Assembly (NCBI GenBank): GCA_903821365.1
Contig: CAIJKY010000006.1
Span: 1 to 24,000, forward strand
Source of the DNA: an uncultured bacterium
GTDB taxonomy: Bacteria; Patescibacteriota; Saccharimonadia; Saccharimonadales; Saccharimonadaceae
Length of the DNA stretch: 24,000 bases
Direction of reading: 5' to 3'
This document shows, in pieces, positions 2,645 through 15,628 of the stretch; position 1 is the first letter of the stretch; every line of letters starts with the position of its first letter. Position numbers and translations under genes: made by a program. Under the pieces are notes generated by a model, which was given only the letters and a program-made list of their open reading frames with translations, was not told the DNA's origin and ran no database searches.

Positions 2645-3628
2645 ATGGCAGTATACAAAGTCCCCCAAGACGTAGAAGCAGAAGACAAGTTAGTCGGTCC
2701 ATTTACATTCCGGCAATCGGTGTATATGGGTATCGCCGTTGGTGCTGGTGGTTTGACCTTCTTGTTCATTCGCGCGCCGATACCGTTTCCGTTTTTCGCG
2801 GCATTAACAGTGCCAGTGATGATTGGCTTTTTGGTGCTTGCGCTTCCACTGCGTAAAGATCAGCCGATGGAGATCTACTTGATGGCGATTCTTCGCTTTA
2901 TGCTCAAGCCGAAGCGACGCATTTGGAGCACTGATGGCGTACCAGTCAGTGTTATTGTTGATGCACCAAAAGTTGTCGAGCAACATCTCACAAAAGACTT
3001 TACTGGCGACGAAGCCTCTGACCGTCTTAGTTACCTTGCGAAAATTGTCGACTCACGCGGCTGGGCGGCAAAGGGGATTGATATTCCAAACGGCCCGTCG
3101 CTCAGTAGCGCCGTGTTAAACGAAGCCGAGTCAACGGTTGACGTACTCGACGAAGACGCGCAGGTGGCGAAATCGTTCGACATGCTCTTGGCACGGCAAA
3201 AAGAAGTCTCGCGCAACGCCGCACGACAAACTATGCAGGGCATTGCACTTCGCATGCCCGGTGGCGCGCCATTACCGCTTGCACCAACGCCGATGGTAAG
3301 CAATATACCACCGCCAAGTCCTTACGCGCCGCCACCAGCCACCAGCGTACCTGGCTCACAACTATTACAGTACCTCCCAAGCCAGGCGCCAACCGCTCGT
3401 CAAGCGCCACAAATGTCAGTTATTCCAAATGAAGCGCCATCAATTGCGGCAGCGCCAACGTTTACACCAATGGCTCAATCTATAGCCACGCCAGACATGA
3501 CACAGACTGTCGCGCCTGCTATACTTAACCTGGCAAATAACAAAGACCTGAGCATCCAAGCAATCGCTCATGAGGCGGAGCGAATGGCGAGGAATGATGA
3601 GCTTGAAGTGGAAATTCCTTTGCGCTAG
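2645..3628 (+). CDS. PrgI-family (VirB3-like) T4SS membrane protein with a Pro-rich C-terminal extension
   Basis: The N-terminus MAVYKVPQDVEAEDKLVGPFTFRQ followed by two hydrophobic helices is the characteristic PrgI/TcpE-family opening. An AAGGA SD lies upstream. The gene sits immediately upstream of the VirB4 genes, as in Gram-positive conjugation loci. Res ~203-290 are P/A/S/T/Q low complexity. Confidence 0.7.
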   Translation: MAVYKVPQDVEAEDKLVGPFTFRQSVYMGIAVGAGGLTFLFIRAPIPFPFFAALTVPVMIGFLVLALPLRKDQPMEIYLMAILRFMLKPKRRIWSTDGVPVSVIVDAPKVVEQHLTKDFTGDEASDRLSYLAKIVDSRGWAAKGIDIPNGPSLSSAVLNEAESTVDVLDEDAQVAKSFDMLLARQKEVSRNAARQTMQGIALRMPGGAPLPLAPTPMVSNIPPPSPYAPPPATSVPGSQLLQYLPSQAPTARQAPQMSVIPNEAPSIAAAPTFTPMAQSIATPDMTQTVAPAILNLANNKDLSIQAIAHEAERMARNDELEVEIPLR

Positions 3629-3674
3629 GATGTTAGTATTAGGTGTAATCTTTAGGGTGGCAGAATAAAATACA

Positions 3675-4769
3675 ATGGATCCTCAAAACTATCCAGGACA
3701 ACAGCAACCAGGTAACGCTAATGTTCCTCCGACTGCATTTCCAGGCGGACAATATGCTATGCCGACACAACCGATGCAGGGCCAACAACCTTTGCCACCA
3801 CTTGGTGGTCCAATAGGGCCTATGCCAATGCAACCTGCTCCGCAATCAATGCAGCAGGCTATGCCTCCAATGGCGGCGCCACAACCGCAGGCACTACCGC
3901 AACAACCCGTTGCGATGCCTCAGCAGCAAATGCAAGCCCCAGCAATGGCGCAACAATCAGTTCCACTTCCGGCACAAGCAATGGTCGGCGGCGTGCCGCA
4001 AACCGTTCCGCCCGCAGGTAAAGGGGCGGCAAGCGTTCAAAAGCGTAATCTTAACAGCACTCAAAACACGCTACTTATCTCTGAGATTCGTGATAACATC
4101 GTCATTATGAGCGATGGTGGCATGCGCGCAATTGTTGCGTGTCGTTCAATCAATTTCGACCTGATGAGCGCCCGTGAACGCGAAGGCGTTGAGTATGGTT
4201 ACCAGAGTTTCTTGAACTCGCTTTACTTCGCTGTCCAGATTTTAATTCGCTCGCAGCGTGTCGACATTGGCCCGTATCTACAAAAGCTCAGCAAGCTTCG
4301 TCGCGACCAAGACAACATGCTACTCGGTGTCTTAATGGATGATTACATCGACTTTATCGCGACTATTTCTGAAGAGACGAACATTATGGATAAACAGTTT
4401 TACGTTGTAGTGCCGTTTTACCCAACAGGTGACTTAAGCAGTGCCGTCAACACAAGTAAAAACTTATTTGCGGGCATCGCACCAACAACGAAGCAGGCAG
4501 TGACGCACATTCCCGAGGCATCGTACCAAAAGGCTAAAGATGAGCTCCAAAACCGTGTCATGACGGTCATTAACGGCCTCTTGCAGATGGGTGTCCATTC
4601 AACACGACTTGATACTAAGCGTCTTGGTGAGTTGTATTACAACGTCTACAACCCAGACACCGCTGTCCGCGAACCGCTCGGTAGTTTCGACACTAGCACA
4701 CCGCCAATCGCTATCCGCAAAGGTACCGGCGAAGCACCACAGCCGCATCTAGAAAGGGAGTCAGCATAA
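3675..4769 (+). CDS. P/Q/M-rich protein carrying a VirB4 N-terminal-like domain (putative detached N-terminal module of VirB4)
   Basis: 364 aa. Res 1-118 are extreme Pro/Gln/Met/Ala low complexity. Res ~125-364 (NSTQNTLLISEIRDNIVIMSDGG..AIVACRSINFDLMSAREREGVEYGYQSFLNSLYFAVQILIRSQ) resemble, from memory, the extreme N-terminus of Tn916 Orf16/PrgJ/TcpF-type VirB4 proteins. The TAA stop overlaps the ATG of the VirB4 gene (ATAATG). Confidence 0.5.
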   Translation: MDPQNYPGQQQPGNANVPPTAFPGGQYAMPTQPMQGQQPLPPLGGPIGPMPMQPAPQSMQQAMPPMAAPQPQALPQQPVAMPQQQMQAPAMAQQSVPLPAQAMVGGVPQTVPPAGKGAASVQKRNLNSTQNTLLISEIRDNIVIMSDGGMRAIVACRSINFDLMSAREREGVEYGYQSFLNSLYFAVQILIRSQRVDIGPYLQKLSKLRRDQDNMLLGVLMDDYIDFIATISEETNIMDKQFYVVVPFYPTGDLSSAVNTSKNLFAGIAPTTKQAVTHIPEASYQKAKDELQNRVMTVINGLLQMGVHSTRLDTKRLGELYYNVYNPDTAVREPLGSFDTSTPPIAIRKGTGEAPQPHLERESA

Positions 4770-6700
4770 TGGGATTATTTGGCGGCAACAAAAAAGATCC
4801 AACTGATATCGCACAGGCACAGCGCCTCCGCGAACAGCAAGAGATCGAGCAAGAATTTCAAAAAGGTATCACGACACTTCGTGATCTGATTGCACCAAGT
4901 TCAATCGAATTTCAATCAAGTCATTTCCGTCTCGGCACAAAATATGGCCGAACGATTTATATTTATGGTTACCCTCGACAGGTCTACACTGGCTGGCTCA
5001 GTCCACTGATTAACATCGATGAAGTGGTTGACGTTAGTATGTTCGTCTACCCAGTTGAGAGTCAGATCGTATTGACCAACCTCCGCAAAAAAGTGTCACA
5101 GCTTGAGGCAAGTATCCAGCTCAACGCCGAACATGGCAAAGTACGTGACCCAGGCCTTCAGGCGGCTGTACAAGACGCTGAAGAACTGCGAGACCAATTA
5201 CAGGTTGGGTCTGAGCGCTTTTTCCGTTACGGCTTATATGTAACCGTTTACGCTGACAGCCTCGATGAACTGCAGTTTGTGCAGCATAAGATCGAAACTA
5301 TTCTTGGCCAACAATTGGTCTTTAGCAAGGTTGCATCGAGTCAACAAGAGCAGGGTCTTAACTCAACCTTGCCACAGCTATCTGACCAACTACAGATTCG
5401 TCGCAATATGAACACTGGCGCTATCTCTACCAGCTTTCCATTCACGAGCGCTGATTTAACGCAAGAATCGGGCATTCTTTATGGCATCAACATGCATAAT
5501 AACGGCCTGGTGATTTTTGACCGCTTTAGTCTTGAGAATGCCAACATGGTAGTCTTTGCTAAATCTGGTGCTGGTAAGTCGTACACCGTGAAACTCGAGG
5601 CACTACGCTCGATGATGATGGGTGCCGAAGTGTTGATCGTCGACCCTGAAAACGAGTATCAAAAATTGTGTGATGCGGTTGGTGGTGCTTACATTCGTTT
5701 GAGTCTTAATTCTGACACGCGTATCAATCCATTTGATTTGCCACGTGTTATCGATAGTGACGACGCCGAGGATGCGCTTCGTGCGAACTTAATCACACTG
5801 CATGGTTTACTGCGCTTGATGATGGGTGGTGCGCAAATTATGGCGAGTGGCGGCACAATGCCAGCACTGAGCCCACTCGAAGAGGCTGATCTTGACCAAG
5901 CGCTTATCGACACCTATGCTCGCGCTGGTATCACGAGCGACCCATTAACCCACAACTCCGTACCGCCAACAATTGGCGACCTTTACGAAACACTCCTCCA
6001 CATGGGTGGTACTGGCCCACAACTTGCACAGCGCTTGCGCAAGTACACCAGCGGTACGTTTGCCGGTATTTTCTCTCAGCAAAGCAACGTTCACATCGAC
6101 AACCCAATGGTCGTGTTTAATATTCGCGACCTTGAAGATGAACTACGGCCGGTCGCTATGTACATCGTTTTGAGCTACATCTGGAACAAGACCCGTAGTG
6201 ATCAGCGTCGTCGCTTGCTACTTGTTGATGAGGCTTGGCAGCTGATGAAATATGACGACTCTGCAAACTTCTTGTTCAGCCTGGCAAAACGTGCTCGTAA
6301 GTACTTCCTTGGCCTTACCACCATTACTCAGGACGTTGAAGACTTTATGGGTAGCAAAATGGGGCGGGCAATTGTGGCCAACGCCTCTATGCAGCTTCTA
6401 CTCAAACAATCGACAAGTGCGGTTGATGTGCTTGCTGAAGTCTTCAAGTTAACTGATGAGGAACGTAAGCGTCTTGCGCAATTCCCGGTAGGGCAGGGGT
6501 TATTCTTTGCTGGACAGAGCCATGTGCACGTACAAATTATTGCCAGCCCGACCGAACATTCGCTTATTACAACCGATCCTCGACAATTGCAGCAAATTCA
6601 ACAGATCCAAGATGCTTCGGCGGCGGCCGCAACACCAGTGGCGCCGGGTAACGACGTCAGCACAAGCTCACCATACGCAACACAAAATTTAGGGAACTAG
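4769..6700 (+). CDS. virB4: VirB4-family type IV secretion ATPase (Gram-positive PrgJ/TcpF/TrsE type)
   Basis: 643 aa. Walker A is AKSGAGKSYT (nt 5561-5590) and Walker B is LLLVDEAWQLM (around nt 6221-6232). The N-terminal LIAPSSIEFQSSHFRLG..YGRTIYIYGYPRQVYTGWLSPL motif is typical of Firmicute-type VirB4. A strong SD (AAGGGAG, 4754-4760) lies 8 nt upstream of the ATG. Confidence 0.9.
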   Translation: MGLFGGNKKDPTDIAQAQRLREQQEIEQEFQKGITTLRDLIAPSSIEFQSSHFRLGTKYGRTIYIYGYPRQVYTGWLSPLINIDEVVDVSMFVYPVESQIVLTNLRKKVSQLEASIQLNAEHGKVRDPGLQAAVQDAEELRDQLQVGSERFFRYGLYVTVYADSLDELQFVQHKIETILGQQLVFSKVASSQQEQGLNSTLPQLSDQLQIRRNMNTGAISTSFPFTSADLTQESGILYGINMHNNGLVIFDRFSLENANMVVFAKSGAGKSYTVKLEALRSMMMGAEVLIVDPENEYQKLCDAVGGAYIRLSLNSDTRINPFDLPRVIDSDDAEDALRANLITLHGLLRLMMGGAQIMASGGTMPALSPLEEADLDQALIDTYARAGITSDPLTHNSVPPTIGDLYETLLHMGGTGPQLAQRLRKYTSGTFAGIFSQQSNVHIDNPMVVFNIRDLEDELRPVAMYIVLSYIWNKTRSDQRRRLLLVDEAWQLMKYDDSANFLFSLAKRARKYFLGLTTITQDVEDFMGSKMGRAIVANASMQLLLKQSTSAVDVLAEVFKLTDEERKRLAQFPVGQGLFFAGQSHVHVQIIASPTEHSLITTDPRQLQQIQQIQDASAAAATPVAPGNDVSTSSPYATQNLGN

Positions 6701-6703
6701 GAC

Positions 6704-9700
6704 ATGCCAACGACGCTTCCTCCAGGTGACAAAAAGCACGAAGACAATCGCTTTGCGCGCAATGTGGCCGACGACCACGAGCGTCGTATTACTGGTGGCG
6801 CGTTTACCGAAGAAGAGAAGCGCAAAATTGGCGACCAGGCGAGAGAAGAAGGACGTCAGACGGCAGATATGTCGCGTCAGCAGCAGCTTGACGCATTAGA
6901 GCGCAACGAGAATCCTAAAGCGAGTCCTGTTAGCAAAAAAGACATTGCCAAGCAAGAATCGGCGCCATGGGAAACAAATGTTAATCCCGAGGGGCCAGCA
7001 AAGACCAAAGGACCGAGTAAAAAGCGCATGAAAATTTTCGTGGCGTCTATCTCGGTTTTTTCGGTTGGCAGTATTTTGGCCTTTTCGTTCTTATTGCCAT
7101 TAAAACTTTTGCATTTTATTGGCAATATCGATCAAGCCGCTGCATACGTCGGCGACAAAGCAGTTGGCAACTGGGTGGAAAACCGTCTTGATTTTTATAT
7201 TGCTGCGCGCATCCTTGCTACTGGTGGCGATGGCAAAGTCGATGGCAATAAGTTTGACCAATATGTCTGTAAGGGTGGTAACATCGCGTGCTCGATGTTC
7301 AAAGGTTGGCGGCTTGGCAAGATCGAAGATAAACTTGGCCTAAAGATCGAGAGTAACCGTACGGGTGTCGGTAATACTGCGACAAAGTGGAAAATTACCC
7401 ACACTGAAAGCGGCCAATCGGTGAGTGGTGACGGCGCTGATGTCGATGGTATTTCGCGTGAGATTGAAACTAGTTCGTCGAATGAATTCCGGCGTATTAT
7501 TGCCGAGCGCACAGAGTCGGTTTCAAAATATAAGTTCTCGTACAAACGTTATGCCACGCGTAAGATGCTTGCCAGAAAGTACGATGTGCGGCGCTGGACG
7601 GGACTCTTGAAACCAGTCGGGCTTGATCAAAAGTTTGATAATGCACTCGACAAAAAGAATGCGTTCTTTAAAGACATCCGCAAAAAGTTAGTGAAAGCGA
7701 CCGTATCAAAAACAAATGCGCGCAATGGGCTCTATATCGAATGTCTCTTGGGTGGCGACTACGATGCGTGTAAAGAGCGGTTGCGCCAGCGATCGTCTGG
7801 CGCAAATGGGCCAGATACAGCCAATAATGGGACCGATGACACCAACGCTGCCAATGAAGCCTCGCAAGTCGACCCAGACGAACTGGTTGATGAAGTAAGC
7901 GCCAATGGCGAAGCAGATGCCGTTGGTAAAGAAGCCGGTAAAACGGTCAGTAAATTCTTATCGAAAAAAGTTCTTGCCAGTGCAGTCGCAGGGGCGGGTG
8001 TCATCGATATTATTTCATCAGCCGTTTCAGCCACCAGCGATGGTACACTCAGCATGATCCAAGCCGACAGGGCAAAAGTGGCCTATGCCGGTTACTACAC
8101 CGAGCTCGCAACCTCAGCGCATCAACTCAAGTTTGGTGATATCGACCCAGAGGCTTATCAAGCACTTGATGGCATTATGTCAGGCATGGAGGGGAGCCCA
8201 GTTGCCCAGCATCAGCTTGGTGTTAATCCGACGCTTGGTACTGCCTCGAACCCAGTAAAACGTGACTGTAACGACGGTCAAGGCACAGTACAGCTCGACG
8301 TTGGTGAATATACTTGTACGGATAAACAAATTCAGCAGGATGTCGCTGGATTCCAGAAATTCTATGCAACCGAAGTTGGTCAAGTTATTACTAACATCAA
8401 TACCATTTGGAAAAACACTGGTCATGCCATTATTCAGTTTTTCGGCCAATTGCTTCCAGTTGACTGGCTCGTTCAGAAATTACTTGAGGCACTTCCAGTA
8501 CTAAAAACCGCCATGGCTGATTTAGTAGACGCAGCCGTTGGTTGGATATTCTCTACGCCAGTAACTGGTCTTGAAACTGGCCCTGATGCCTACGACGCAA
8601 TGGCAGCCGGTGGCGAAGTGGTTAATGACAGCATGCTTGCAGAAGGCCAGGCCGATGATGGTACCGGTATGGGCATGGGTGCCGTACCGGCAGCACCAAA
8701 AGTAGCCGCCGACTACCAGCGTGCTTACGCCGAAGAAAAGCAAGTAGCCTACGAGAAAAGCTCATTGGCTGACAAGATCTTTAACCCTGACATTCAAGGC
8801 TCTGTTGCCGACAGGGTGCTCATGACAACACCGACCAACATCGCCAGCATTTTCACCCAGCCAATCTCGCTCGCAGCAAGCATGCTCAGTTACTCGCCAC
8901 AAGCAAAGGCCTTCCAAAATATAGGCGACAACATCTTCCATGATGACAAATACGCTTGGCCACTTGATCCAAAAGATGCAGCGTACAATACCGATCCAAC
9001 GCAAATTAACGAAGCCACCTGTGATGCGTCACGCAAGTTCCGTAATGATAGCTATGAGAAACGCGACGGTGAGATTATACCGATGTATCACGAGTACGAT
9101 CCGTGCGCGCTTGAAAAAGTCGGGGCAGTGGCTGGCTCGAACACTTTCACCGATGCTTACAAGAAAGACTTTGATCTTAATGTTGGAGACGCTGCGGCGG
9201 CCGCACCAACACCGACCGCACAGACTGGAACACCAGGGCAGACAAAGCCGCTTGGTAGTGGTTTCACGCTTGCCGATGGCACGGATTATACTGCAACTCC
9301 ATGTGCAGCAGGATCAACCGAAAGCCGCATCTACACCCACCCGATCAAGGCATTTAAGGTACGTCTTTGTAAAGTCAAAAGTATGGAAGTTGCATCGATT
9401 ATTAGCGACAAGTTAGTCGCCATGGTGAATGCTGCGCAAGCCGCCGGTATCGACCTTAATGGTGGCGGATTTAGAACCTACGAGCAACAAATTGAAGCGC
9501 GTAAACGTAATGGCTGCCCAGCTGACCCAACCGCAGCCAGTACTACTTGCCGCGTTCCGACTGCGCCTCCTGGAACTGGTCAGCATGAGCGGGGCTTAGC
9601 TATCGACTTCACTGCCGGCGGTGGCACTATCGGCAAAAGCTCAGCTCAATACAAATGGCTCACCGCTAACGCCGCAAAATTCGGCTTCATCAACTATCCG

Positions 9701-9736
9701 GCCGAAAGCTGGCACTGGTCAACCTCAGGAAATTAA
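6704..9736 (+). CDS. Large membrane-anchored T4SS-associated protein with a C-terminal peptidase M15 (VanY-like D-Ala-D-Ala carboxypeptidase/endopeptidase) domain
   Basis: 1010 aa. It has a charged N-terminal ~110 aa, one TM helix (IFVASISVFSVGSILAFSFLLPL) and a ~715-aa ectodomain I cannot assign. An Ala/Pro/Thr linker leads to a C-terminal domain with M15B motifs GGFRTYEQQ, GQHERGLAIDF (HxxGxAxD) and ESWHWS (ExWH). Confidence 0.8.
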   Translation: MPTTLPPGDKKHEDNRFARNVADDHERRITGGAFTEEEKRKIGDQAREEGRQTADMSRQQQLDALERNENPKASPVSKKDIAKQESAPWETNVNPEGPAKTKGPSKKRMKIFVASISVFSVGSILAFSFLLPLKLLHFIGNIDQAAAYVGDKAVGNWVENRLDFYIAARILATGGDGKVDGNKFDQYVCKGGNIACSMFKGWRLGKIEDKLGLKIESNRTGVGNTATKWKITHTESGQSVSGDGADVDGISREIETSSSNEFRRIIAERTESVSKYKFSYKRYATRKMLARKYDVRRWTGLLKPVGLDQKFDNALDKKNAFFKDIRKKLVKATVSKTNARNGLYIECLLGGDYDACKERLRQRSSGANGPDTANNGTDDTNAANEASQVDPDELVDEVSANGEADAVGKEAGKTVSKFLSKKVLASAVAGAGVIDIISSAVSATSDGTLSMIQADRAKVAYAGYYTELATSAHQLKFGDIDPEAYQALDGIMSGMEGSPVAQHQLGVNPTLGTASNPVKRDCNDGQGTVQLDVGEYTCTDKQIQQDVAGFQKFYATEVGQVITNINTIWKNTGHAIIQFFGQLLPVDWLVQKLLEALPVLKTAMADLVDAAVGWIFSTPVTGLETGPDAYDAMAAGGEVVNDSMLAEGQADDGTGMGMGAVPAAPKVAADYQRAYAEEKQVAYEKSSLADKIFNPDIQGSVADRVLMTTPTNIASIFTQPISLAASMLSYSPQAKAFQNIGDNIFHDDKYAWPLDPKDAAYNTDPTQINEATCDASRKFRNDSYEKRDGEIIPMYHEYDPCALEKVGAVAGSNTFTDAYKKDFDLNVGDAAAAAPTPTAQTGTPGQTKPLGSGFTLADGTDYTATPCAAGSTESRIYTHPIKAFKVRLCKVKSMEVASIISDKLVAMVNAAQAAGIDLNGGGFRTYEQQIEARKRNGCPADPTAASTTCRVPTAPPGTGQHERGLAIDFTAGGGTIGKSSAQYKWLTANAAKFGFINYPAESWHWSTSGN

Positions 9737-9744
9737 CGAGAAAA

Positions 9745-10992
9745 ATGATGCATAAAAAGTTACTCTATTTCAAAAAAGGCCTACTCGTACTCATCGCTTT
9801 GGTGTGCGCAAGCGCCAACGTTGCAACAGTACATGCTGCTGTGCCCACGCCAAATGACCAAAACGCCATCAATCTTGAGGCGCCATTCTACGACCCAAAC
9901 TTTGTTGACCAAAGTTGCACGGGCACTGTGCCTCCAGGTGGATCGGTCGGGGGTGCAGCCGGATCAACAGCAGCAGCAAACGTTGAAGCGTTTGTCGATA
10001 AATATGGCAAACAAGCTTTTGACGTTGGCAAGAAAAACGGCATTCCTTACGAAGCAATCTTGGCGCAAGCAATTCTAGAGTCAAGTTATGGAAAATCACA
10101 GCTCACTCAGCAGGCTAATAATTTCTTTGGCATCAAAGCTGGTTCGTCATGGACGGGCCCGACCGTCACTAAACGAACAGCCGAGCAAAAACCCGACGGC
10201 TCAGTGTATTACGTTGATGCTGCGTTTCGCGCTTACCCAAGTGCCGAAGCGGGATTTCAAGGCTATGCCGACTTTATTCGCGGCTCAGATCGCTATAAAA
10301 AAGCACTTGCATATCCTGGCGACCCAGTAAAGTACATACAAGCAATTAAAGATGCTGGCTACGCCACCGATGTCAGTTACGTTCAAAAGAATGTCACTAT
10401 TCAAGAAAAAGTAAAGTCTTACATCGCGAGTAAAAACCTCTTCCCACCATCGTCACAGGTAGTACCTGATGTCGCGGCGACCACCCCCGGCGTTGCCGCA
10501 CCAAATGTCTGCAGCTCCGCAGCCGCAGCGGGTGCAGGTGGCAGTGTCGTACAAGTTGCAATGGCAGAGCAAGCCGCCTGGAAAAAGGGGAGTGACTACC
10601 ACAAATATACACTTGGCGGCTCGGGCAACTGGTGTGCATGGTTTGTTTCATGGGTGTTTAAGCAAGCGGGTCGGCCAATGATCGCACCACCGAATGTTGG
10701 CCAGGTGCAGGGATGGAGTATTTCTTCAGTCGACAATATAAAAGCATACATGGTTGGCAAGAACGCTTTCAATGCTAAAGCAAACGCACCCGCACCAAAA
10801 CCCGGTGATATCGTTATTTACAAAGAAGGCATGAGCCACACTAACATCGTTGTTTGGTCGGATGGCTATATGGTTAAGACTATTGGTGGCAACCAAGCCT
10901 CAAATGACATCAATGCCAGCAGTGTCACCATCAGCCCAGCAGTCGATATTAGAAACTTAAGTGGCGTAACCGGATGGGGGACACTACCGTAA
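9745..10992 (+). CDS. Secreted bifunctional peptidoglycan hydrolase: GH73 N-acetylglucosaminidase domain + CHAP amidase/endopeptidase domain
   Basis: 415 aa. The signal peptide ends in ...ATVHA/AV. GH73 motifs are PYEAILAQAILESSYGKS, NNFFGIKA and AGYATDVSYVQK. An Ala/Pro linker follows. The CHAP domain has catalytic Cys in NWCAWFVSWVFKQAG and His in MSHTNIVV. This matches the PrgK/TcpG/TraG class of T4SS hydrolases. Confidence 0.85.
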   Translation: MMHKKLLYFKKGLLVLIALVCASANVATVHAAVPTPNDQNAINLEAPFYDPNFVDQSCTGTVPPGGSVGGAAGSTAAANVEAFVDKYGKQAFDVGKKNGIPYEAILAQAILESSYGKSQLTQQANNFFGIKAGSSWTGPTVTKRTAEQKPDGSVYYVDAAFRAYPSAEAGFQGYADFIRGSDRYKKALAYPGDPVKYIQAIKDAGYATDVSYVQKNVTIQEKVKSYIASKNLFPPSSQVVPDVAATTPGVAAPNVCSSAAAAGAGGSVVQVAMAEQAAWKKGSDYHKYTLGGSGNWCAWFVSWVFKQAGRPMIAPPNVGQVQGWSISSVDNIKAYMVGKNAFNAKANAPAPKPGDIVIYKEGMSHTNIVVWSDGYMVKTIGGNQASNDINASSVTISPAVDIRNLSGVTGWGTLP

Positions 10993-11693
10993 TGAAAAAT
11001 AAGAAACTACTTATTGTTGGTGGATTTTTGGTGCTGTTAGTGCTTATAGGACTTGGTTTTGCAGGCGTCCAGAGTTTTACGTTTCAGCTTGCAAAGAGCT
11101 ATCCTGACAACAACGGCACCCTTAACGTCGGCAATTCGATCATCTTAACCTACAATCGAGATATTCAGGACGGTGCCAAAATAACTGCTCCATTTACTTA
11201 CACAACGAAAGTTGATGGTGCCAAGTTATATGTCACCCCAAATGCCGAACTTGCACAGGATAGGCCTTACCAAATCACTGTTAGCGGCGTCAAAGAGAAG
11301 AATGGCAGTGCAGTGGCGGCAAATACAACATTGATTTTTAAAGTAGCAGCATTACCATTCAACACACTGCCAAAAGAACAGCAAGACGAACTGTCAAACA
11401 CTGATAATATTGAGTATCGGCTCAACCCAGTCAGTGCGATTCTGCCAATTGCCGAACTTGAATACGCGATCGACTCAGCCAAGCTCAACGGCAAATACTA
11501 CACCGTCATTACACCAGCAGCTACGCCAAGCGCCGGCCTGACTGAAGATGAGTATAATGCTGAATATAAACGCGAGTACGACGAAGGCGTCGCCTTGCTC
11601 AAAGAAAAAGGTTTTGACGCTAAAAAGGTAAATGCTATTAGCGATCAAGACTACGCAAAATTACAATCAAAGACCACCGAAGGTTCTGAATAA
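10992..11693 (+). CDS. Membrane-anchored protein with a bacterial Ig-like (Big_5/SbsA-like) domain; last gene of the T4SS-like operon
   Basis: The ORF is open from 10974. I prefer ATG 10992, which overlaps the upstream TAA (TAATG) and gives MKNKKLLIVGGFLVLLVLIGL, a signal-anchor. The segment YPDNNGTLNVGNSIILTYNRDI...YQITVSGVKEKNGSAV..TLIFKV fits the Big_5 Ig-like pattern. Function is unknown. Confidence 0.5.
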   Translation: MKNKKLLIVGGFLVLLVLIGLGFAGVQSFTFQLAKSYPDNNGTLNVGNSIILTYNRDIQDGAKITAPFTYTTKVDGAKLYVTPNAELAQDRPYQITVSGVKEKNGSAVAANTTLIFKVAALPFNTLPKEQQDELSNTDNIEYRLNPVSAILPIAELEYAIDSAKLNGKYYTVITPAATPSAGLTEDEYNAEYKREYDEGVALLKEKGFDAKKVNAISDQDYAKLQSKTTEGSE

Positions 11694-11696
11694 AAG

Positions 11697-12752
11697 TTAC
11701 AGCGCAATGATAGCGCCGCCGCTAATACCACTTGGCACATAGGTTGCCTCTGTGGTCGTCAGTATCATCTGATAGCCCCTCAGAAGGCTCGCCAAGGCCT
11801 CCTGGCGGGTACTATCAAGCTCACTCATCACATCATCAAGCAATAATAATGGTGATCGTCCACTTAGCTCAGCAAGCTGAGTAACTTCGATATGTTTCAT
11901 TGCTAGCATAAGACTTCGCTGTTCACCGCGCGACGCAGTACTCAAAGCGGGTTGATTATTTATTTTGATGTTAAAATCACTACGATGTGGCCCGATGGTT
12001 GTGTAGCCGCGACGAATATCCAAACCGCGTAACGATCGTAGAGCAGCGATAAAATCAGATTTTTCAGTCTGCTGACTGGTTTCGTAATCCACGCGTATAT
12101 CGTGCGGTGCACGCGCAATACGACTGTATTCTTCGCTCATTGATTGATTTAAAATTGCGACCACTTGATGACGGTAGCGTTCAATATGCGCCGCAGCCTC
12201 AGCCAGCGATACGTCCCAGACGAACAACTGATCATCAAGTTGCGCCTGCGACAAATCATAGGCTTGTTTGAGTAAGTTATTGCGCTGCAATAAAACGCGA
12301 TCATAACGGCGCAGAAGCGCGCCACCATCAAAGAACCATTGGCCAATCAAGGTATTCAAGAATAAACGCCGACGGGCAGGCGAACCAGACAATACACGTA
12401 GCATGTCAGGCTCGAACAGTACAACCGGCAACGCATCTTCACGCTTGAAGCGTTTCTTAGCCCCGCCATTAATCGATAATGTCTTGGGCGGTCTGATAGA
12501 CGATTCGTACCGCATGGTGCGTTCCTGGTCGTCGTAGACGCCGTCTAAGCGAAACCACTTGGCGTCGGTCTGCACTACGTCTTTGTCGGCCACACGAAAC
12601 GATGTACCAGTCGACAGCATATGCACCGCTTCGAGCAAATTGGTCTTGCCGATGCCATTAAGCCCAACGATGACATTCACTCCCTCGGAAAATTCAAAGA
12701 AACTATCGCTATATGAGCGGAAATTCTGTACACGCAGCGAAACAATAGCCAT
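11697..12752 (-). CDS. recF: DNA replication and repair protein RecF
   Basis: MAIVSLRVQNFRSYSD...GLNGIGKTNLLEA (Walker A), SRGEQRSLMLAMK signature and LLLLDDVMSELD (Walker B). It lies directly downstream of dnaN. Confidence 0.95.
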   Translation of the reverse strand: MAIVSLRVQNFRSYSDSFFEFSEGVNVIVGLNGIGKTNLLEAVHMLSTGTSFRVADKDVVQTDAKWFRLDGVYDDQERTMRYESSIRPPKTLSINGGAKKRFKREDALPVVLFEPDMLRVLSGSPARRRLFLNTLIGQWFFDGGALLRRYDRVLLQRNNLLKQAYDLSQAQLDDQLFVWDVSLAEAAAHIERYRHQVVAILNQSMSEEYSRIARAPHDIRVDYETSQQTEKSDFIAALRSLRGLDIRRGYTTIGPHRSDFNIKINNQPALSTASRGEQRSLMLAMKHIEVTQLAELSGRSPLLLLDDVMSELDSTRQEALASLLRGYQMILTTTEATYVPSGISGGAIIAL

Positions 12753-12773
12753 AGGGTTTAGATTACAATATTT

Positions 12774-13868
12774 CTACGACTTTAACGGCATGATGAGATG
12801 TAAATAGCTGTCATCATTCTTGGCACGAAGAATACAAGCAGCCAGCTTGCCACTAAAAGAGAAGGTGAGGGGAGAGTCGTCAATGCAACCTAGCCCTTCG
12901 ATAAGATAGCGGGAATTAAGCGTTACTTTACCATCGTTCGAAACAACGGCTGTCGCCTCGGATGTGTTTTCACCCAGTTGTGAGGCAATTGAATGAATTT
13001 TAACCGTACCGCTTTCGGCCGAAGCGTCGATTGTCACACCGCCGCCACTTTCGCGGGCGAACAAACTGGCGACTTTCGTGATGCGTACAAAATCGGGCTT
13101 GGCGATTTCGACAACCGTATCGTTGTCGCTGGGGATAAGCTGTCGATAGTCAACAAAGGTGCCATCGATTAGCTTGCTGGTGATTTCGATATCACCAAGA
13201 CGCAATCGGACCTGAGCTTCATCGAGCAAAACTTTGACCGTCGTTATGTCGTCGGTGAGTACGCGAACCGCCTCTGATAGGGCAGTGGCCGGGATGATCG
13301 CCGCGACTTCACCATCGAATTGCTTCAGCAACTGGCGTTCAGCGAGACGGTAGCCATCGGTTGCAGCCATGTACAATGCGCCGCCATGACTGTGCCAATA
13401 CACACCAGTCAGAATGGGGCGGGTGTCGTCGTGTGATGCAACCAAGGCGACTTGCTGGATAGCGCGCTTGAGCAGTTTTGCATCCAGCTCAAGTTCAATG
13501 GTCGTCTCAATACTTGGCAGGTCAGGGAACTCATCAGCTTGCATGCCATGGATCTTTGAACTATAGCCACCGCTTTTGATATTGAGCGTCGTGCCTTCGA
13601 GTATCATTTCGACATTACCCGCAGGCAAACTGGTGATGAAGTCACTCATCAAGCGTGCTGGGACAGTAAAGCCGCCGTTTTGCTCAACTTTACCGCCGAC
13701 GTATTCAGTGATTGCGATTTCCAGGTTAGTAGCTGCGAGGAGAAGTCGATTATTATCGGCTCTTAAGAGAATATTGCCAAGAATCGGTAATGACGTCTTG
13801 GCACTAGCAACACGACCAACAGTTGTTAAGGCGCTGGCGAGTTTTTCTTGGGTGACGGTTAGTTTCAT
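12774..13868 (-). CDS. dnaN: DNA polymerase III beta sliding clamp
   Basis: 364 aa. The N-terminus MKLTVTQEKLASAL..LPILGNILL..LLLAATNLEIAI is typical of DnaN. A GGAG SD is present. Position in dnaA-dnaN-recF synteny supports the call. Confidence 0.95.
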   Translation of the reverse strand: MKLTVTQEKLASALTTVGRVASAKTSLPILGNILLRADNNRLLLAATNLEIAITEYVGGKVEQNGGFTVPARLMSDFITSLPAGNVEMILEGTTLNIKSGGYSSKIHGMQADEFPDLPSIETTIELELDAKLLKRAIQQVALVASHDDTRPILTGVYWHSHGGALYMAATDGYRLAERQLLKQFDGEVAAIIPATALSEAVRVLTDDITTVKVLLDEAQVRLRLGDIEITSKLIDGTFVDYRQLIPSDNDTVVEIAKPDFVRITKVASLFARESGGGVTIDASAESGTVKIHSIASQLGENTSEATAVVSNDGKVTLNSRYLIEGLGCIDDSPLTFSFSGKLAACILRAKNDDSYLHLIMPLKS

Positions 13869-13883
13869 TCGGCAAAAGCTCCT

Positions 13884-13938
13884 TCTTTATTATGTATTCT
13901 TATTCTTTTATATAAATAATAGTAATAACAATAAGCCC
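13884..13938. promoter_or_regulatory. AT-rich DNA-unwinding-element candidate with a DnaA-trio-like array
   Basis: ttctttattatgtattcttattcttttatataaataatagtaataacaataaGCCC. Six in-phase trinucleotides, five of them TAA/TAG, abut a GC cluster and a DnaA box. Confidence 0.5.
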
Positions 13939-14141
13939 TGTGGATAGTGGGTAAAAGTGCCTATGTAGATCTGTTATTATGCACTTTTTGATGGTGGACA
14001 AACGGTGGGGTGACATGTGGGATAAACGGTGGACAAAGCCGATTAATGAACAGCCACCTACAATGTACATACCCTGTCCACACAAAAGGGGGATAGCCTC
14101 CCACAGCTTATGCCCCCTATTTACCACCATCTGCACACAGC

Positions 14142-14150
14142 TTATCCACA
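14142..14150 (+). promoter_or_regulatory. Perfect consensus DnaA box TTATCCACA
   Basis: Exact 9-mer read directly from the sequence. Confidence 0.75.
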
Positions 14151-14194
14151 TTCTGTTCGCAGGACTCAACAATGTTTCTGGCAATTGTCTATAT

Positions 14195-15628
14195 CTATCC
14201 ATACAGCAATTCTCTGATGTTTGCAACTTGCTGTCGCGTCATTTGATCGAGTTTTATACTTTTCTCAATCTTATCGACTGAATGGATAGCGGTTGTGTGG
14301 TCCTTGCGGCCGAGTTCGTTGGCGATGCGCGGGAAGCTGAGGTGCAATTCGCTACGGAGTAAGTACATTGCAATTTGTCGAGGGCCAACAATGTGTTTGT
14401 CGCGCTTTGGGCTCATCATCTCGGCGGGTTCAAGTTGGAAATGACGGGCAGTTTTTTCGACGATCTGTTTCGCTGTTAGATGGCGAGGTCGTGTCGTGCG
14501 AACATCAGTAATAAGACCGGCAGCAGTTTGCGCATCTGGCACCGAGCCGCTCATTTCGCAGTAGGTAAGGAGCTTATTGAGCGCGCCCTCGAGCTCGCGG
14601 ATGTTGGTCTGTATGTTGCTTGCGATGTACTCGATGGTCGCACGATCTAAGGTAACGTTATGACCAGCGGCTTTGGTTTGAAGGATGGCACAACGTGTCT
14701 CAAAGTCGGGTAACTGCATATCAATTGACATGCCCCATTCGAAACGGCTGCGAAGGCGTTCTTCAAGTGTTGGGATACTTTTTGGTGGTTGATCCGAGCT
14801 GATGATAATCTGTTTATTCGCCTGATGCAGCGCGTTAAAGGTGTGAAAAAAGCCTTCTTGTGTAGCCTGCTTGCCAGCGATAAATTGAATATCGTCGATA
14901 ATCAATACATCAACTTTGCGGTAGCGTTCAGCAAAGCCTTGTTTTTTGAAGCGGATACTATCGAGAAACTCGTTCACAAAGGTTTCGCAACTGGTGTAGA
15001 GAATACGAGACTCCGGGTCATTGCGCTTGATCTCGTTGCCAACGGCTTGGATAAGATGGGTTTTGCCAAGACCTACTCCGCCGTAAATAAAGAGAGGATT
15101 ACACTTTGTTCCAGGATGCTTGGCGGCTGCTTGGCTGGCGGCAAAGGCAAGCTCGTTGCTGCCGCCAACGATAAAGGTTTCAAATGTATAGCGGGCATTA
15201 AGTCCGCTGGGGTTGCCAGCACTTGTTGGCCGGTTAGTACGTGATGGTGCCTGGCCAGGACTGACGGCGCGTGAGGCATATGAATACTGGGTTGAATCTG
15301 GATTAGTGGGGAGCGGTGTCTCGTCGCGGGGCTTGGAGTTTGAACTCGTCTCGTTACTGGCATTGGTAGTTGTTTTGCGTGCTGCCGAAGAAATGACGTA
15401 CTCGATTGTTGCCACTTCTTTGCTTACTTTTTGCAAGATAGTAAGAATCTGCTGGTTGAATTTTGTTTGCATTTGTTCACGTGCAAAAATATTTGAGACG
15501 CCAACAACCGCTCGGCCATTATTTATTTCAATAAGCTCTGAGTTTTTAAACCAAGTGATATAACTACCGCGAGTGACCGATAGTTCAATTTCACCAAGCA
15601 CGCTCTGCCACACAGACGCTTCGTTCAT
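14195..15628 (-). CDS. dnaA: Chromosomal replication initiator protein DnaA
   Basis: 477 aa. It has an AAA+ Walker A (GGVGLGKTHL), Walker B (DVLIIDDIQF) and a C-terminal DnaA-box-binding helix-turn-helix region (...RKDHTTAIHSVDKIE...). An AAGGGG SD is present. Confidence 0.97.
   Translation of the reverse strand: MNEASVWQSVLGEIELSVTRGSYITWFKNSELIEINNGRAVVGVSNIFAREQMQTKFNQQILTILQKVSKEVATIEYVISSAARKTTTNASNETSSNSKPRDETPLPTNPDSTQYSYASRAVSPGQAPSRTNRPTSAGNPSGLNARYTFETFIVGGSNELAFAASQAAAKHPGTKCNPLFIYGGVGLGKTHLIQAVGNEIKRNDPESRILYTSCETFVNEFLDSIRFKKQGFAERYRKVDVLIIDDIQFIAGKQATQEGFFHTFNALHQANKQIIISSDQPPKSIPTLEERLRSRFEWGMSIDMQLPDFETRCAILQTKAAGHNVTLDRATIEYIASNIQTNIRELEGALNKLLTYCEMSGSVPDAQTAAGLITDVRTTRPRHLTAKQIVEKTARHFQLEPAEMMSPKRDKHIVGPRQIAMYLLRSELHLSFPRIANELGRKDHTTAIHSVDKIEKSIKLDQMTRQQVANIRELLYG

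What the first reader, a model, noticed from the sequence alone, without database searches (positions are those of the whole stretch)
6704..10992. Three distinct peptidoglycan-cleaving chemistries are encoded in the secretion operon
ORF6 ends in an M15/VanY-type zinc peptidase (HxxGxAxD and ExWH motifs present). ORF7 combines a GH73 N-acetylglucosaminidase (catalytic LESSYG Glu, YATD motif) with a CHAP cysteine peptidase/amidase (Cys in NWCAW, His in SHTNIV). Gram-positive T4SS usually carry one hydrolase protein of SLT/LytM/CHAP type. An M15 carboxypeptidase domain on a 1010-aa membrane-anchored scaffold is atypical. Cutting glycan strands, stem peptides and terminal D-Ala bonds would suit breaching a thick foreign cell wall (a host cell) as well as the organism's own wall.
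Basis: partly seen in the sequence, partly recalled or inferred. Interest (0 to 1): 0.6.

Follow-up and report, generated by a model that had tools for sequence, protein, structure and literature searches.

The report
Swappable wall-cutting genes beside a secretion motor
Two genes next to the motor of a type IV secretion system in a tiny Saccharibacteria genome encode three intact cell-wall-cutting enzymes; this pairing is already recorded for the group, and close relatives carry different enzyme types at the same spot.

Summary
ORF6 (6704-9736, 1010 aa) ends in an M15B/VanY-type zinc peptidase. ORF7 (9745-10992, 415 aa) joins a GH73 glycosidase to a CHAP cysteine peptidase.

The arrangement is unusual for classical Gram-positive conjugation systems but normal for Saccharimonadia. 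The syntenic genes of Southlakia epibionticum ML1 are tabulated as an M15-fold protein and a lysozyme plus cysteine protease, both essential (Wang 2023 supplement; noted by Quinonero-Coronel 2025).

In a 151-genome sample, by my hand comparison of coordinates, at least about 33 of 144 virB4-bearing genomes have a large frame ending in M15 close downstream of virB4, most of them directly adjacent. Division-type hydrolases lie elsewhere in this genome.

The new point is that ORF6-ORF8 form a hypervariable island. Relatives with 76-84% identical VirB4 carry M23, CHAP, C39-like or no recognisable domain on the ORF6-position protein. Most carry a different lysozyme family in ORF7. Two congeners with identical VirB4 share no detectable DNA across 6.4 kb here. 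Earlier notes of this scan report the same swapping on other genomes.

The bond cut by the M15 domain, and whether the target is the cell's own wall or the host's, remain untested.

The parts
4769..6700 (+). virB4 ATPase gene; the conserved left flank of the hydrolase island
   Evidence: NCBIfam conju_CD1110 VirB4-like, E 4e-110. Found in 144 of 151 sampled class genomes; matches of 60-84% identity lie at the main locus, and second copies of about 40% identity lie elsewhere. All 20 relatives' loci match window 5001-6500 by blastn.
6704..7027 (+). ORF6 aa 1-108: charged N-terminal tail, predicted disordered and presumed cytoplasmic
   Evidence: pLDDT below 55. It precedes the only strong hydrophobic helix and ends in a Lys/Arg cluster. 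In G107 versus G137, only the first ~145 aa of the ORF6-position proteins are still alike.
7028..7129 (+). ORF6 aa 109-142: membrane anchor
   Evidence: Kyte-Doolittle mean of 2.14 over a 19-residue window. It is part of one long helix, aa 105-172, in the model.
7130..9160 (+). ORF6 aa 143-819: mostly alpha-helical scaffold, presumed extracytoplasmic, with no known fold relative
   Evidence: The model is mostly at pLDDT 75-95. Cys347, 356, 522, 538, 773 and 801 are invariant in 71 homologues. No PDB match by profile. No fold match in PDB or BFVD beyond the M15 end. Homologous scaffolds occur in 89 of the 151 best library representatives.
9161..9256 (+). ORF6 aa 820-851: flexible linker at the module boundary
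   Evidence: pLDDT 33-42. Matches to other carriers of the M15 module start at about aa 828-850.
9257..9736 (+). ORF6 aa 852-1010: M15B (VanY/LdcB-type) zinc peptidase module; Pfam core aa 896-1006 = 9389-9721
   Evidence: Pfam VanY, E 4.2e-13. The whole-genome scan hits 9389-9721 as the only VanY match in the genome. PDB: VanY-B and LdcB. pLDDT above 90. R924, H961, D968, E1001 and H1004 are conserved in 127-129 of 129 T4SS-linked modules.
9745..9837 (+). ORF7 aa 1-31: Sec-type signal peptide or signal anchor
   Evidence: Hydrophobic stretch at aa 6-34. A basic N-terminus is followed by a VHA/A site in the translation. Cleavage is inferred, not tested.
10009..10413 (+). ORF7 aa 89-223: GH73 glycosidase (FlgJ/AtlA-type) domain
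   Evidence: Pfam, E 9e-32. FlgJ 2zyc, E 7e-23, with both Glu residues aligned. Only GH73 match in the genome. PHROG endolysin phrog_3513, E 5.8e-44.
10618..10893 (+). ORF7 aa 292-383: CHAP cysteine peptidase/amidase domain
   Evidence: Pfam CHAP, E 6.5e-10, covering positions 4-81 of the 81-position model. C297, H365 and N383 lie in the expected motifs. One of four CHAP matches in the genome.
10974..11693 (+). ORF8: 239-aa Big_5 Ig-like protein; third gene of the variable island
   Evidence: Pfam Big_5, E 9e-5. In congeneric pairs of genus g4, DNA similarity resumes only after the equivalent third gene.

Best explanation
ORF6 and ORF7 are the dedicated cell-wall-remodelling module, the functional counterpart of VirB1/PrgK/TraG/CwlT, of the chromosomal, origin-proximal type IV secretion system of Saccharimonadia.

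ORF6 is a single-pass membrane protein. A disordered N-terminal tail is followed by one long anchor helix. Then comes a ~680-aa helical, disulfide-bearing scaffold of unknown fold, a flexible linker and a catalytically complete M15B zinc peptidase. ORF7 is exported and joins a GH73 glycan-strand hydrolase to a CHAP peptidase/amidase. Together they would cut glycan strands and stem peptides locally, so that the channel and its pilus can pass through peptidoglycan.

The M15 + GH73 + CHAP combination is one draw from a set of interchangeable catalytic cassettes that replace one another at two slots: the scaffold C-terminus and the two domains of ORF7.

Shown here: domain identity, intact catalytic residues, conserved synteny, module boundaries, cassette exchange, and separation from the stand-alone M15 paralogues.

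Inferred: enzymatic activity, topology, the bond cut by the M15 domain, and the target wall. I lean towards the cell's own wall for assembly, and probably the host wall at the contact site as well, because the chemistry changes between species whose motor protein is identical.
For: Domains and residues:
- Pfam hits and catalytic residues are as listed in the observation check.
- The catalytic residues of the M15 module are kept in 127-129 of 129 T4SS-linked modules.

Synteny:
- The order virB4, then a ~830-1500-aa ORF, then a ~410-570-aa ORF is found in 17 relatives; a third ORF of ~210-240 aa follows directly in eight of them.
- At least about 33 of 144 class genomes have an M15-ended large frame close downstream of virB4, most of them directly adjacent (coordinates compared by hand).
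- The orthologous pair in Southlakia ML1 (SEML1_0007: DD-peptidase fold at aa 951-1105; SEML1_0006: two lysozyme-like domains plus a cysteine proteinase) is scored essential in Tn-seq and cited in PMC12102498.

Dedicated rather than housekeeping:
- PcsB-like CHAP (two copies), LysM-CHAP, NlpC/P60 and MltG are encoded elsewhere.
- In the M15 tree, stand-alone 250-300-aa paralogues form their own clade (SH-aLRT 99). The window's module groups with T4SS-linked carriers and near an Iamia plasmid M15 that lies beside T4SS genes.

Cassette exchange:
- C-terminal domains of the ORF6-position proteins are M23 in 6, VanY in 5, CHAP in 2, C39_2 in 1, a weak NlpC match in 1 and none in 3.
- Among 43 library scaffolds with another tail, 20 carry M23 and 6 carry Exo_endo_phos, with several others.
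- The ORF7 position carries PF18013 in 13 of 18 and GH73 only in this window.
- The closest relatives of this M15 module (71%, 58% and 55% identity) sit on ~420-aa lysozyme2+VanY proteins.
- Domain type needs 10 changes on an 18-taxon VirB4 tree, which is no better than shuffled labels.
- G107 and G137 have 100% identical VirB4 but share no DNA similarity for 6.4 kb, from ~157 nt into ORF6 to the stop of the ORF7-like gene.
Against: - No activity, localisation or interaction data exist for these proteins.
- In pCF10 PrgK only the middle domain is the active hydrolase. Its LytM and CHAP domains appear to be regulatory (PMC12857230), so intact motifs do not prove that all three domains cut the wall.
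- The best sequence and fold matches of the M15 domain are carboxypeptidases (VanY-B, LdcB). These trim stem peptides and do not open the mesh.
- Essentiality in Southlakia applies to nearly the whole locus and does not separate a wall-opening role from other roles.
- Fast divergence alone could explain part of the lost similarity in more distant pairs.
- The count of about 33 of 144 rests on coordinates compared by hand, and contig breaks make it a lower bound.
Confidence: 0.7

Rival explanations
1. Host-wall weapon. The two proteins act mainly on the peptidoglycan of the actinobacterial host at the attachment site, either to let the T4SS or pilus reach the host membrane or to free wall fragments. 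Cassette choice then tracks host wall chemistry or host inhibitors.
For: - Peptidase type is distributed at random with respect to VirB4 phylogeny.
- The island is replaced wholesale between congeners with identical VirB4. This is hard to explain if the only substrate were the cell's own, presumably conserved, wall.
- The T4SS is essential for epibiotic growth and lacks a coupling protein and a relaxase (PMC10633639).
- The GH73 domain is closest to phage endolysin families.
Against: - No secretion or translocation signal is known for either protein.
- ORF6 is membrane-anchored in the producer.
- All characterised Gram-positive T4SS hydrolases act on the donor wall (PMC12857230).
- No immunity-like gene lies beside them in this window. 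The small ORFs at that position in relatives gave no family match.
- The hosts of these genomes are unknown, so no correlation could be tested.
Confidence: 0.3
2. Housekeeping autolysins that merely lie next to the T4SS genes. They would serve cell growth, budding or separation.
For: - VanY and GH73 are each single-copy in this 95%-complete genome.
- No M23, SLT, PF18013 or Amidase_3 match was found.
- This genome lacks the stand-alone ~270-aa M15 protein that many relatives have.
Against: - Division-type hydrolases are encoded elsewhere: two PcsB-like coiled-coil CHAP proteins, a LysM-CHAP protein next to mltG, and an NlpC/P60 protein.
- Synteny with virB4 holds across the class.
- The T4SS-linked M15 clade is separate from the stand-alone paralogues.
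- A housekeeping enzyme would not be expected to switch catalytic class between congeners.
Confidence: 0.07
3. The M15 domain is a trimming or regulatory module, not a wall-opening enzyme. As an LD- or DD-carboxypeptidase it would shorten stem peptides around the apparatus, limiting re-crosslinking or marking the site. GH73 would do the actual cutting.
For: - The best matches are VanY-B and LdcB carboxypeptidases by sequence and by fold.
- The profile scores 64-66 bits against them, compared with 29 bits for the L-Ala-D-Glu endopeptidase Ply500, entry 2vo9.
- Precedent: the LytM and CHAP domains of PrgK are regulatory.
Against: - The same slot is filled in relatives by M23, CHAP, NlpC/P60 and C39-like domains, families that from general knowledge are endopeptidases or amidases. 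This suggests an equivalent cross-link-cutting or stem-cutting role.
- The VanY family also holds endolysin endopeptidases (2vo9 and 6akv; phage hits).
Confidence: 0.3

Closest known systems
SEML1_0007 / SEML1_0006 of the Southlakia epibionticum ML1 T4SS locus (Wang et al. 2023, PMC10633639, Tables S1-S2; noted in Quinonero-Coronel et al. 2025, PMC12102498)
   Same: - Same position: directly after virB4 and beside recF-dnaN-dnaA.
- A ~1000-1100-aa protein whose only assignable domain is a C-terminal DD-peptidase (M15) fold.
- It is followed by a protein with a lysozyme-like domain plus a cysteine protease.
- Both genes are Tn-seq essential.
   Different: - SEML1_0006 is 643 aa and carries GH73, a PF18013 lysozyme and a cysteine protease. 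ORF7 here is 415 aa with GH73 plus CHAP only.
- The papers neither describe the three chemistries nor the cassette variability in their main text.
PrgK of pCF10 (DELTA-class VirB1-like hydrolase; Laverde Gomez 2014, Sun 2024, as reviewed in PMC12857230)
   Same: - Encoded in a Gram-positive-type T4SS operon.
- Has an N-terminal cytoplasmic part, one membrane anchor and extracellular catalytic domains.
- Three wall-directed domains are involved in total.
   Different: - PrgK carries LytM, a muramidase and CHAP on one chain, and only the muramidase is the active cutter.
- Here the domains are split over two proteins, the metallopeptidase is M15B rather than M23, and its catalytic residues are conserved.
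- A ~680-aa helical scaffold with no counterpart precedes the M15 domain.
TcpG of pCW3 and CwlT of ICEBs1 (bifunctional glycosidase plus papain-like cysteine peptidase of Gram-positive conjugative elements)
   Same: ORF7 has the same two-domain logic: an N-terminal glycan-strand hydrolase and a C-terminal cysteine peptidase, in an exported protein encoded in the transfer operon. The NlpC/P60 domain of TcpG is documented in PMC5770547. The glucosaminidase domain of TcpG and the muramidase of CwlT are from my own knowledge and were not checked here.
   Different: - The cysteine peptidase here is CHAP, not NlpC/P60.
- The system lacks a relaxase and a coupling protein and is chromosomal and essential rather than conjugative.
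VanY-B and LdcB/DacB (M15B carboxypeptidases; PDB 5hnm, 5zhf, 4ox5, 4mph)
   Same: - Best sequence and fold matches of the ORF6 C-terminal module.
- Same zinc ligands (H, D, H), catalytic Glu and conserved Arg.
   Different: - Those are ~200-270-aa stand-alone enzymes for resistance or wall maturation.
- This module sits at the end of a 1010-aa T4SS protein.
- It belongs to a clade separate from the stand-alone M15 proteins of the same class.
M15B genes beside actinobacterial T4SS clusters on Iamia sp. SCSIO 61187 plasmids (NZ_CP050950.1, NZ_CP050949.1)
   Same: - Best plasmid matches of the module: 38-40% identity, E 2e-17.
- On NZ_CP050950.1 the gene lies within about 2 kb of a T4SS cluster holding genes annotated TraM-recognition (coupling-type) protein, SCO6880 family protein, ATP-binding protein and type IV secretion system protein. 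On NZ_CP050949.1 an SCO6880 family gene lies about 2.5 kb away.
- They fall among the T4SS-linked carriers in the tree.
   Different: - They are 350-aa proteins without the scaffold.
- They are transcribed divergently from the T4SS genes.
- They sit on plasmids of a free-living actinobacterium and are uncharacterised.

Membership tests
Peptidase M15B (VanY/LdcB), Pfam PF02557 | Profile score above the curated threshold | tested here: met
   49.7 bits against a cut-off of 25, aa 896-1006; 51.9 bits in the genome scan.
Peptidase M15B (VanY/LdcB), Pfam PF02557 | Zinc ligands His-x6-Asp plus a distal His, the catalytic Glu of ExxH, and the conserved Arg | tested here: met
   R924, H961, D968, E1001 and H1004 are present. 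They align with VanY-B and are conserved in 127-129 of 129 related modules.
Peptidase M15B (VanY/LdcB), Pfam PF02557 | LAS/DD-peptidase fold | tested here: met
   The model has pLDDT above 90 for aa 852-1010. Foldseek probability is 1.00 to VanYB, BaLdcB and DacB.
Peptidase M15B (VanY/LdcB), Pfam PF02557 | Carboxypeptidase activity (removal of terminal D-Ala) | not testable with these tools
   This needs muropeptide analysis. The family also contains endopeptidases (2vo9 and 6akv).
GH73 N-acetylglucosaminidase/muramidase, Pfam PF01832 | Profile score above threshold and the catalytic Glu | tested here: met
   110.8 bits against a cut-off of 30.2. E112 aligns with the Glu that is Ala in the FlgJ mutant entry 3k3t.
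GH73 N-acetylglucosaminidase/muramidase, Pfam PF01832 | Second acidic residue on the beta-hairpin and the YATD tyrosine motif | tested here: met
   E147 aligns with a conserved Glu of FlgJ in the RTxE segment. YATD lies at 206-209.
CHAP, Pfam PF05257 | Profile score above threshold with the Cys and His of the catalytic pair | tested here: met
   39.8 bits against a cut-off of 26, covering 4-81 of the 81-position model. C297 and H365 lie in the expected motifs. No solved structure is close enough in sequence to confirm this by alignment.
VirB1-like peptidoglycan hydrolases of Gram-positive T4SS (ALPHA/BETA/DELTA classes) | Encoded within the T4SS operon | tested here: met
   The genes lie directly after virB4 with 3-nt and 8-nt gaps. 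The order is conserved in relatives.
VirB1-like peptidoglycan hydrolases of Gram-positive T4SS (ALPHA/BETA/DELTA classes) | Membrane anchor with extracellular catalytic domain(s) | tested here: inconclusive
   A hydrophobic helix at aa 109-142 in ORF6 and a leader at aa 6-34 in ORF7 were found by hydropathy only. Conserved Cys pairs fit an extracytoplasmic location. No topology experiment exists.
VirB1-like peptidoglycan hydrolases of Gram-positive T4SS (ALPHA/BETA/DELTA classes) | SLT or muramidase domain, with CHAP or NlpC/P60, homologous to TrsG/CD419/PrgK | tested here: not met
   There is no SLT anywhere in the genome. The glycosidase is GH73 and the metallopeptidase is M15B. PMC12102498 reports that the standard VirB1 profiles miss these genes in Saccharimonadia. 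The pair works like these hydrolases but is not a sequence member.
VirB1-like peptidoglycan hydrolases of Gram-positive T4SS (ALPHA/BETA/DELTA classes) | Required for function of the system | not testable with these tools
   The orthologues in Southlakia are scored essential. Nothing is known for this organism.
Saccharimonadia T4SS hydrolase pair (SEML1_0007/0006 type) | Large single-pass protein with a C-terminal peptidase directly after virB4, then a lysozyme plus peptidase protein, beside the replication origin | tested here: met
   Window layout. The same order holds in 17 relatives and across the class.
Saccharimonadia T4SS hydrolase pair (SEML1_0007/0006 type) | Direct sequence homology to the Southlakia proteins | not tested
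Homology is inferred through the shared scaffold family.
Polymorphic toxin-like loci (conserved N-terminus, variable C-terminal domain, adjacent immunity gene) | Variable C-terminal catalytic domain on a conserved carrier | tested here: met
Polymorphic toxin-like loci (conserved N-terminus, variable C-terminal domain, adjacent immunity gene) | Cognate immunity gene immediately downstream | tested here: not met
   No ORF lies between ORF6 and ORF7 in the window. The small ORFs at that place in relatives match no family.

The most novel reading that the evidence does not exclude
The ORF6-ORF8 island is a recombining host-interface cassette. Interchangeable wall-cutting domains (M15, M23, CHAP, C39-like, GH73, PF18013, GDSL esterase, amidase), carried on a T4SS-docked scaffold, would be matched to the peptidoglycan chemistry or defences of the bacterial host. 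They would thereby help set which hosts a Saccharibacteria strain can grow on.
Probability: 0.25. Interest if true: 0.75.

Novelty: new member of a known kind. Interest (0 to 1): 0.42.

Why it matters
The T4SS of Saccharibacteria is essential for their life on host bacteria, yet what it does is unknown. The hydrolase genes are its fastest-changing part. Knowing that all three domains are catalytically complete gives a concrete handle on how these epibionts cross one or two thick cell walls. So does knowing that they belong to a T4SS-dedicated lineage rather than to housekeeping enzymes, and that relatives exchange them as cassettes. These genes may also contribute to host specificity. As an isolated annotation of this window, the finding is ordinary for the group.

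Tried and rejected
- **Word-indexed homologue search with ORF6.** It found one protein, so it was too insensitive for this family. The exhaustive HMMER search replaced it.
- **tblastn of ORF6 and ORF7 against 19 virB4-adjacent loci.** It found almost nothing. This first looked like gene absence. ORF maps showed that positional equivalents are present but unrecognisable.
- **Phage origin of the M15 module.** Phage hits are weak: identity is 39% or less over full-length hits, and E is 4e-6 or worse. The module does not group with the two phage rows in the tree. Rejected as the nearest source.
- **Tape-measure-like or virion-protein analogy for the helical scaffold.** BFVD and PDB fold searches gave only noise outside the M15 end, with probability 0.09 or less. 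Rejected.
- **Known T4SS component hidden in the scaffold.** A profile of 71 homologues against the PDB hit only the C-terminal domain.
- **CHAP domain against PDB by sequence.** No usable match.
- **Immunity genes.** Pfam on ten small ORFs from relatives gave nothing above threshold.
- **Promoter and terminator scan of 4500-12000.** Counts are within chance. The operon inference rests on gene spacing only.
- **Structure prediction.** It succeeded later.

Full report
**Setting.** The window is contig 6, bases 1-24000, of a 1.03-Mb genome in 17 contigs that is 95% complete. An earlier follow-up of this scan calls the locus a Saccharibacteria T4SS. The plus strand carries a tightly packed operon:
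- two unassigned ORFs (24-1364 and 1372-2592);
- a PrgI/VirB3-like gene (2645-3628);
- a TrsD-like gene (3675-4769);
- virB4 (4769-6700);
- ORF6 (6704-9736), ORF7 (9745-10992) and ORF8 (10974-11693, Big_5 Ig-like).

recF, dnaN and dnaA follow on the minus strand.

**Check of the observation.** Pfam places three domains, all above the curated thresholds:
- VanY (M15B) at aa 896-1006 of ORF6, E 4.2e-13;
- GH73 at aa 89-223 of ORF7, E 9e-32;
- CHAP at aa 292-383 of ORF7, E 6.5e-10.

For M15 these are R924, H961-x2-G-x-A-x-D968 and E1001-x-W-H1004. For GH73 they are E112 and YATD at 206-209. For CHAP they are C297 and H365.

The GH73 domain aligns with Sphingomonas FlgJ (2zyc, E 7e-23). E112 falls on the residue that is Ala in the mutant entry 3k3t, and E147 falls on a second conserved Glu. 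The M15 domain is closest to VanY-B (5hnm, 5zhf) and to LdcB/DacB/YodJ.

ORF6 has one strong hydrophobic helix at aa 109-142, after a charged tail. ORF7 has an N-terminal leader.

**What ORF6 looks like.** An AlphaFold2 model built on 71 homologues (mean pLDDT 77.8, pTM 0.71) shows five parts:
- a disordered tail, aa 1-102;
- one helix spanning aa 105-172 that includes the anchor;
- a mostly helical body up to aa ~819, largely at pLDDT 75-95;
- a disordered linker, aa 820-851;
- a compact M15 domain with pLDDT above 90.

Six cysteines of the body (347, 356, 522, 538, 773, 801) are invariant in the 71-sequence alignment. This fits an extracytoplasmic, disulfide-bonded location.

Only the M15 end matches anything solved or viral. 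Foldseek gives VanYB, BaLdcB and DacB at probability 1.00 and noise for the rest. BFVD gives phage M15B/VanY domains only. A profile of the family against PDB sequences also hits only the C-terminal domain: VanY-B 1.5e-17, YodJ/LdcB 9e-17 to 6e-13, and Ply500 (2vo9) 3.9e-6.

**Is it unusual?** Against classical Gram-positive T4SS, yes. The reviewed VirB1-like classes use SLT or muramidase, CHAP and LytM domains (PMC12857230).

Within its own lineage, no:
- The Southlakia epibionticum ML1 tables list SEML1_0007 directly after virB4. It is 1113 aa, and its only assigned domain is a Hedgehog/DD-peptidase fold at aa 951-1105. Its best AlphaFold-DB neighbour is named Peptidase M15B.
- They list SEML1_0006 next, with GH73, a PF18013 lysozyme and a cysteine proteinase.
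- Both are scored as essential. [quoted passage not shown]

In a sample of 151 genomes of the class, 144 have virB4 and 70 match ORF6, nearly always through the M15 end of an 850-1600-aa frame. I compared coordinates by hand. At least about 33 genomes have that frame close downstream of virB4 on the same strand, and in most it is the next gene. This is a lower bound because contigs break there.

The exhaustive library search gave 2939 hits at E of 1e-3 or better and 153 at 1e-30 or better.

**Modularity.** I split ORF6 into scaffold (aa 100-845) and M15 module (aa 846-1010) and compared each with the 151 best representatives:
- 35 have both parts;
- 43 have the scaffold with a different tail;
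- 11 have the scaffold without a tail;
- 28 have the M15 module on another long protein;
- 34 have it on a short protein.

Pfam on the 43 'other tail' proteins finds M23 in 20, Exo_endo_phos in 6, divergent VanY in 4 and GDSL in 2. CHAP, C39_2, NlpC/P60, M74 and a beta-helix occur once each.

The closest relatives of this window's M15 module are not scaffold proteins. They are ~420-aa Phage_lysozyme2+VanY proteins at 71%, 58% and 55% identity. In the module tree the window groups with one of them at SH-aLRT 98. One sampled genome has GH73 and M15 fused in the ORF7 position next to virB4. The M15 cassette therefore moves between the two slots.

**Close relatives.** I fetched the regions beside virB4 from 20 genomes of the same family or order; 19 covered the downstream side. 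VirB4 is 76-84% identical to the window's, yet tblastn with ORF6 and ORF7 finds almost nothing. ORF maps nevertheless show the same order in 17 of them: virB4, a ~830-1500-aa ORF, then a ~410-570-aa ORF. A ~210-240-aa ORF follows directly in eight of these.

Counting the window, the ORF6-position proteins end in M23 (6), VanY (5), CHAP (2), C39_2 (1), a weak NlpC/P60 match (1) or nothing recognisable (3). Where a domain is found, it always lies near the C-terminal end of the protein.

The ORF7-position proteins carry PF18013 in 13 of 18. They also carry CHAP in 5, GDSL esterase in 3 and M15_4 in 2. Amidase_2, M23, C39_2 and others occur once each. GH73 occurs only in the window.

On a VirB4 tree of the 18 genomes, the ORF6 C-terminal type needs 10 changes. 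The minimum possible is 5 and the shuffled mean is 10.6, so the label shows no phylogenetic clustering.

**Island boundaries.** G107 and G137 belong to the same genus and have VirB4 segments that are 100% identical over 572 aa. Their DNA is 93% identical up to ~157 nt into ORF6. It then shows no blastn match for 6.4 kb and resumes at 86% at about the stop of the ORF7-like gene. One carries M23 and the other a C39-like domain.

In the three pairs of genus g4, similarity ends at the virB4 stop and resumes just after the third gene. The pairs within genus g6 show a similar gap. The g9 and g11 pairs keep weak similarity inside the island. All 20 loci match the window at 5001-6500 and none match between ~6600 and 12500.

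In this window the variable island is therefore ORF6-ORF8. The clean breakpoints in the near-identical pair argue for replacement by recombination. In more distant pairs, fast divergence may contribute.

**Dedicated or housekeeping?** VanY and GH73 are single-copy here, and no M23, PF18013, SLT or Amidase_3 match was found. The genome does, however, encode several hydrolases elsewhere:
- MltG;
- a LysM-LysM-CHAP protein beside it;
- two tandem PcsB-like coiled-coil CHAP proteins;
- an NlpC/P60 protein.

In the M15 tree (149 rows), the stand-alone 250-300-aa M15 proteins of the class form their own clade (SH-aLRT 99) together with one unverified phage contig. T4SS-linked modules lie on the other side, with the M15 genes of two Iamia plasmids. 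On one of those plasmids the M15 gene lies within about 2 kb of genes annotated TraM-recognition protein, SCO6880 family protein, ATP-binding protein and type IV secretion system protein.

The module is neither of the housekeeping type nor endolysin-derived. It belongs to a T4SS-associated lineage.

Its catalytic residues are kept in 127-129 of 129 T4SS-linked modules clustered at 50% identity. That argues for an active enzyme.

The nearest relatives of the GH73 domain are also virB4-adjacent: G130 at 63%, G034 at 55% and G019 at 51% identity over the domain. Stand-alone GH73 genes on other contigs are similarly or less alike, at 48% and 42%.

**Mechanism.** The best-supported reading is a T4SS-dedicated wall-remodelling module that stands in for VirB1/PrgK/TraG/CwlT:
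- ORF6 is held in the membrane next to the motor and presents a peptidase on a long extracellular scaffold.
- ORF7 supplies glycan cleavage and a second peptidase or amidase.

The following are not shown:
- enzymatic activity;
- topology;
- the bond cut by the M15 domain, whose best matches are carboxypeptidases although its positional equivalents belong to endopeptidase or amidase families;
- the target wall.

The switching of catalytic class between species with the same motor is easier to explain by an external, variable substrate such as the host wall than by the cell's own wall. This is only an inference. The hosts of these genomes are unknown, and no immunity-like partner was found.

**Verdict.** The finding is a correct annotation of a feature already recorded for Saccharibacteria. 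The less obvious property is that the hydrolase genes form a hypervariable, cassette-swapping island. Earlier notes of this scan reached the same conclusion on other genomes. I read those notes after my own searches had shown the pattern. No paper found in the searched library describes this variability.

Noticed in passing
L049 (G107:C3:105000-117000) versus L055 (G137:C1:1-11000): Two congeneric genomes have VirB4 segments that are 100% identical. They share no detectable DNA for 6.4 kb, from ~157 nt into the ORF6-position gene to the stop of the ORF7-like gene. Flanking identity is 93% and 86%. This looks like a clean cassette replacement.
   Followed up: partly
L038:2203-6714 (G110), aa 828-1068 of a 1504-aa protein; also 6 of 43 library representatives: Longer versions of the scaffold protein carry an Exo_endo_phos (nuclease/phosphatase/sphingomyelinase-type) domain between the scaffold and a C-terminal CHAP. 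This is not a wall-cutting chemistry and may point to another activity delivered at the contact site.
   Followed up: no
L050:5078-7621, L053:5100-6773, L054:5161-6882 (ORF7-position proteins of relatives): Some ORF7-position proteins add a GDSL esterase domain, which could be an O-acetyl-peptidoglycan esterase, or an Amidase_2 domain to the PF18013 lysozyme.
   Followed up: no
L057 (NZ_CP050950.1) and L058 (NZ_CP050949.1), Iamia sp. plasmids: The best plasmid homologues of the M15 module are 350-aa proteins. On one plasmid the gene lies within about 2 kb of an actinobacterial T4SS cluster (SCO6880 family protein, ATP-binding protein, T4SS protein, TraM-recognition protein). On the other an SCO6880 family gene lies about 2.5 kb away. 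PLSDB's resistance predictor labels these genes vanY, which is probably a mislabel.
   Followed up: partly
G000:C5:92371-94672 (L005:730-3031) and G000:C9:56931-59252: This genome has two tandem PcsB-like (coiled-coil plus CHAP) genes. It also has a LysM-LysM-CHAP gene just downstream of mltG. These are likely the division and growth hydrolases.
   Followed up: partly
whole genome G000: This genome shows no stand-alone ~270-aa M15 protein of the kind found away from the T4SS in many relatives (for example G089, G050, G077). It also shows no M23, SLT, PF18013 or Amidase_3 match. The assembly is 95% complete, so absence is not proven.
   Followed up: partly
L042:6278-6802, L043:5411-5926, L055:4813-5828, L056:4602-5464, L038:6714-7172, L049:6983-7408: Several relatives have one or two unassigned 140-180-aa ORFs between the ORF6-position and ORF7-position genes. 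The window has none. No Pfam family reaches threshold for any of them.
   Followed up: partly
L074 (G130:C1:286000-296000), about 2983-4266 on the minus strand: A 427-aa protein next to virB4 fuses a GH73 domain (63% identical to the window's) directly to an M15 domain. The same chemistries occur in another arrangement.
   Followed up: partly
L079 (Synechococcus phage S-SSM4, NC_020875.1 176659-179583): A 975-aa cyanophage protein annotated as endolysin contains an M15 domain 34% identical to the window's. It is another large carrier of this domain, and it sits on a long branch in the tree.
   Followed up: no
window 11697-15628 (minus strand): recF, dnaN and dnaA lie convergent with the T4SS operon. 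The ORF8 stop and the recF stop are only 3 nt apart.
   Followed up: no
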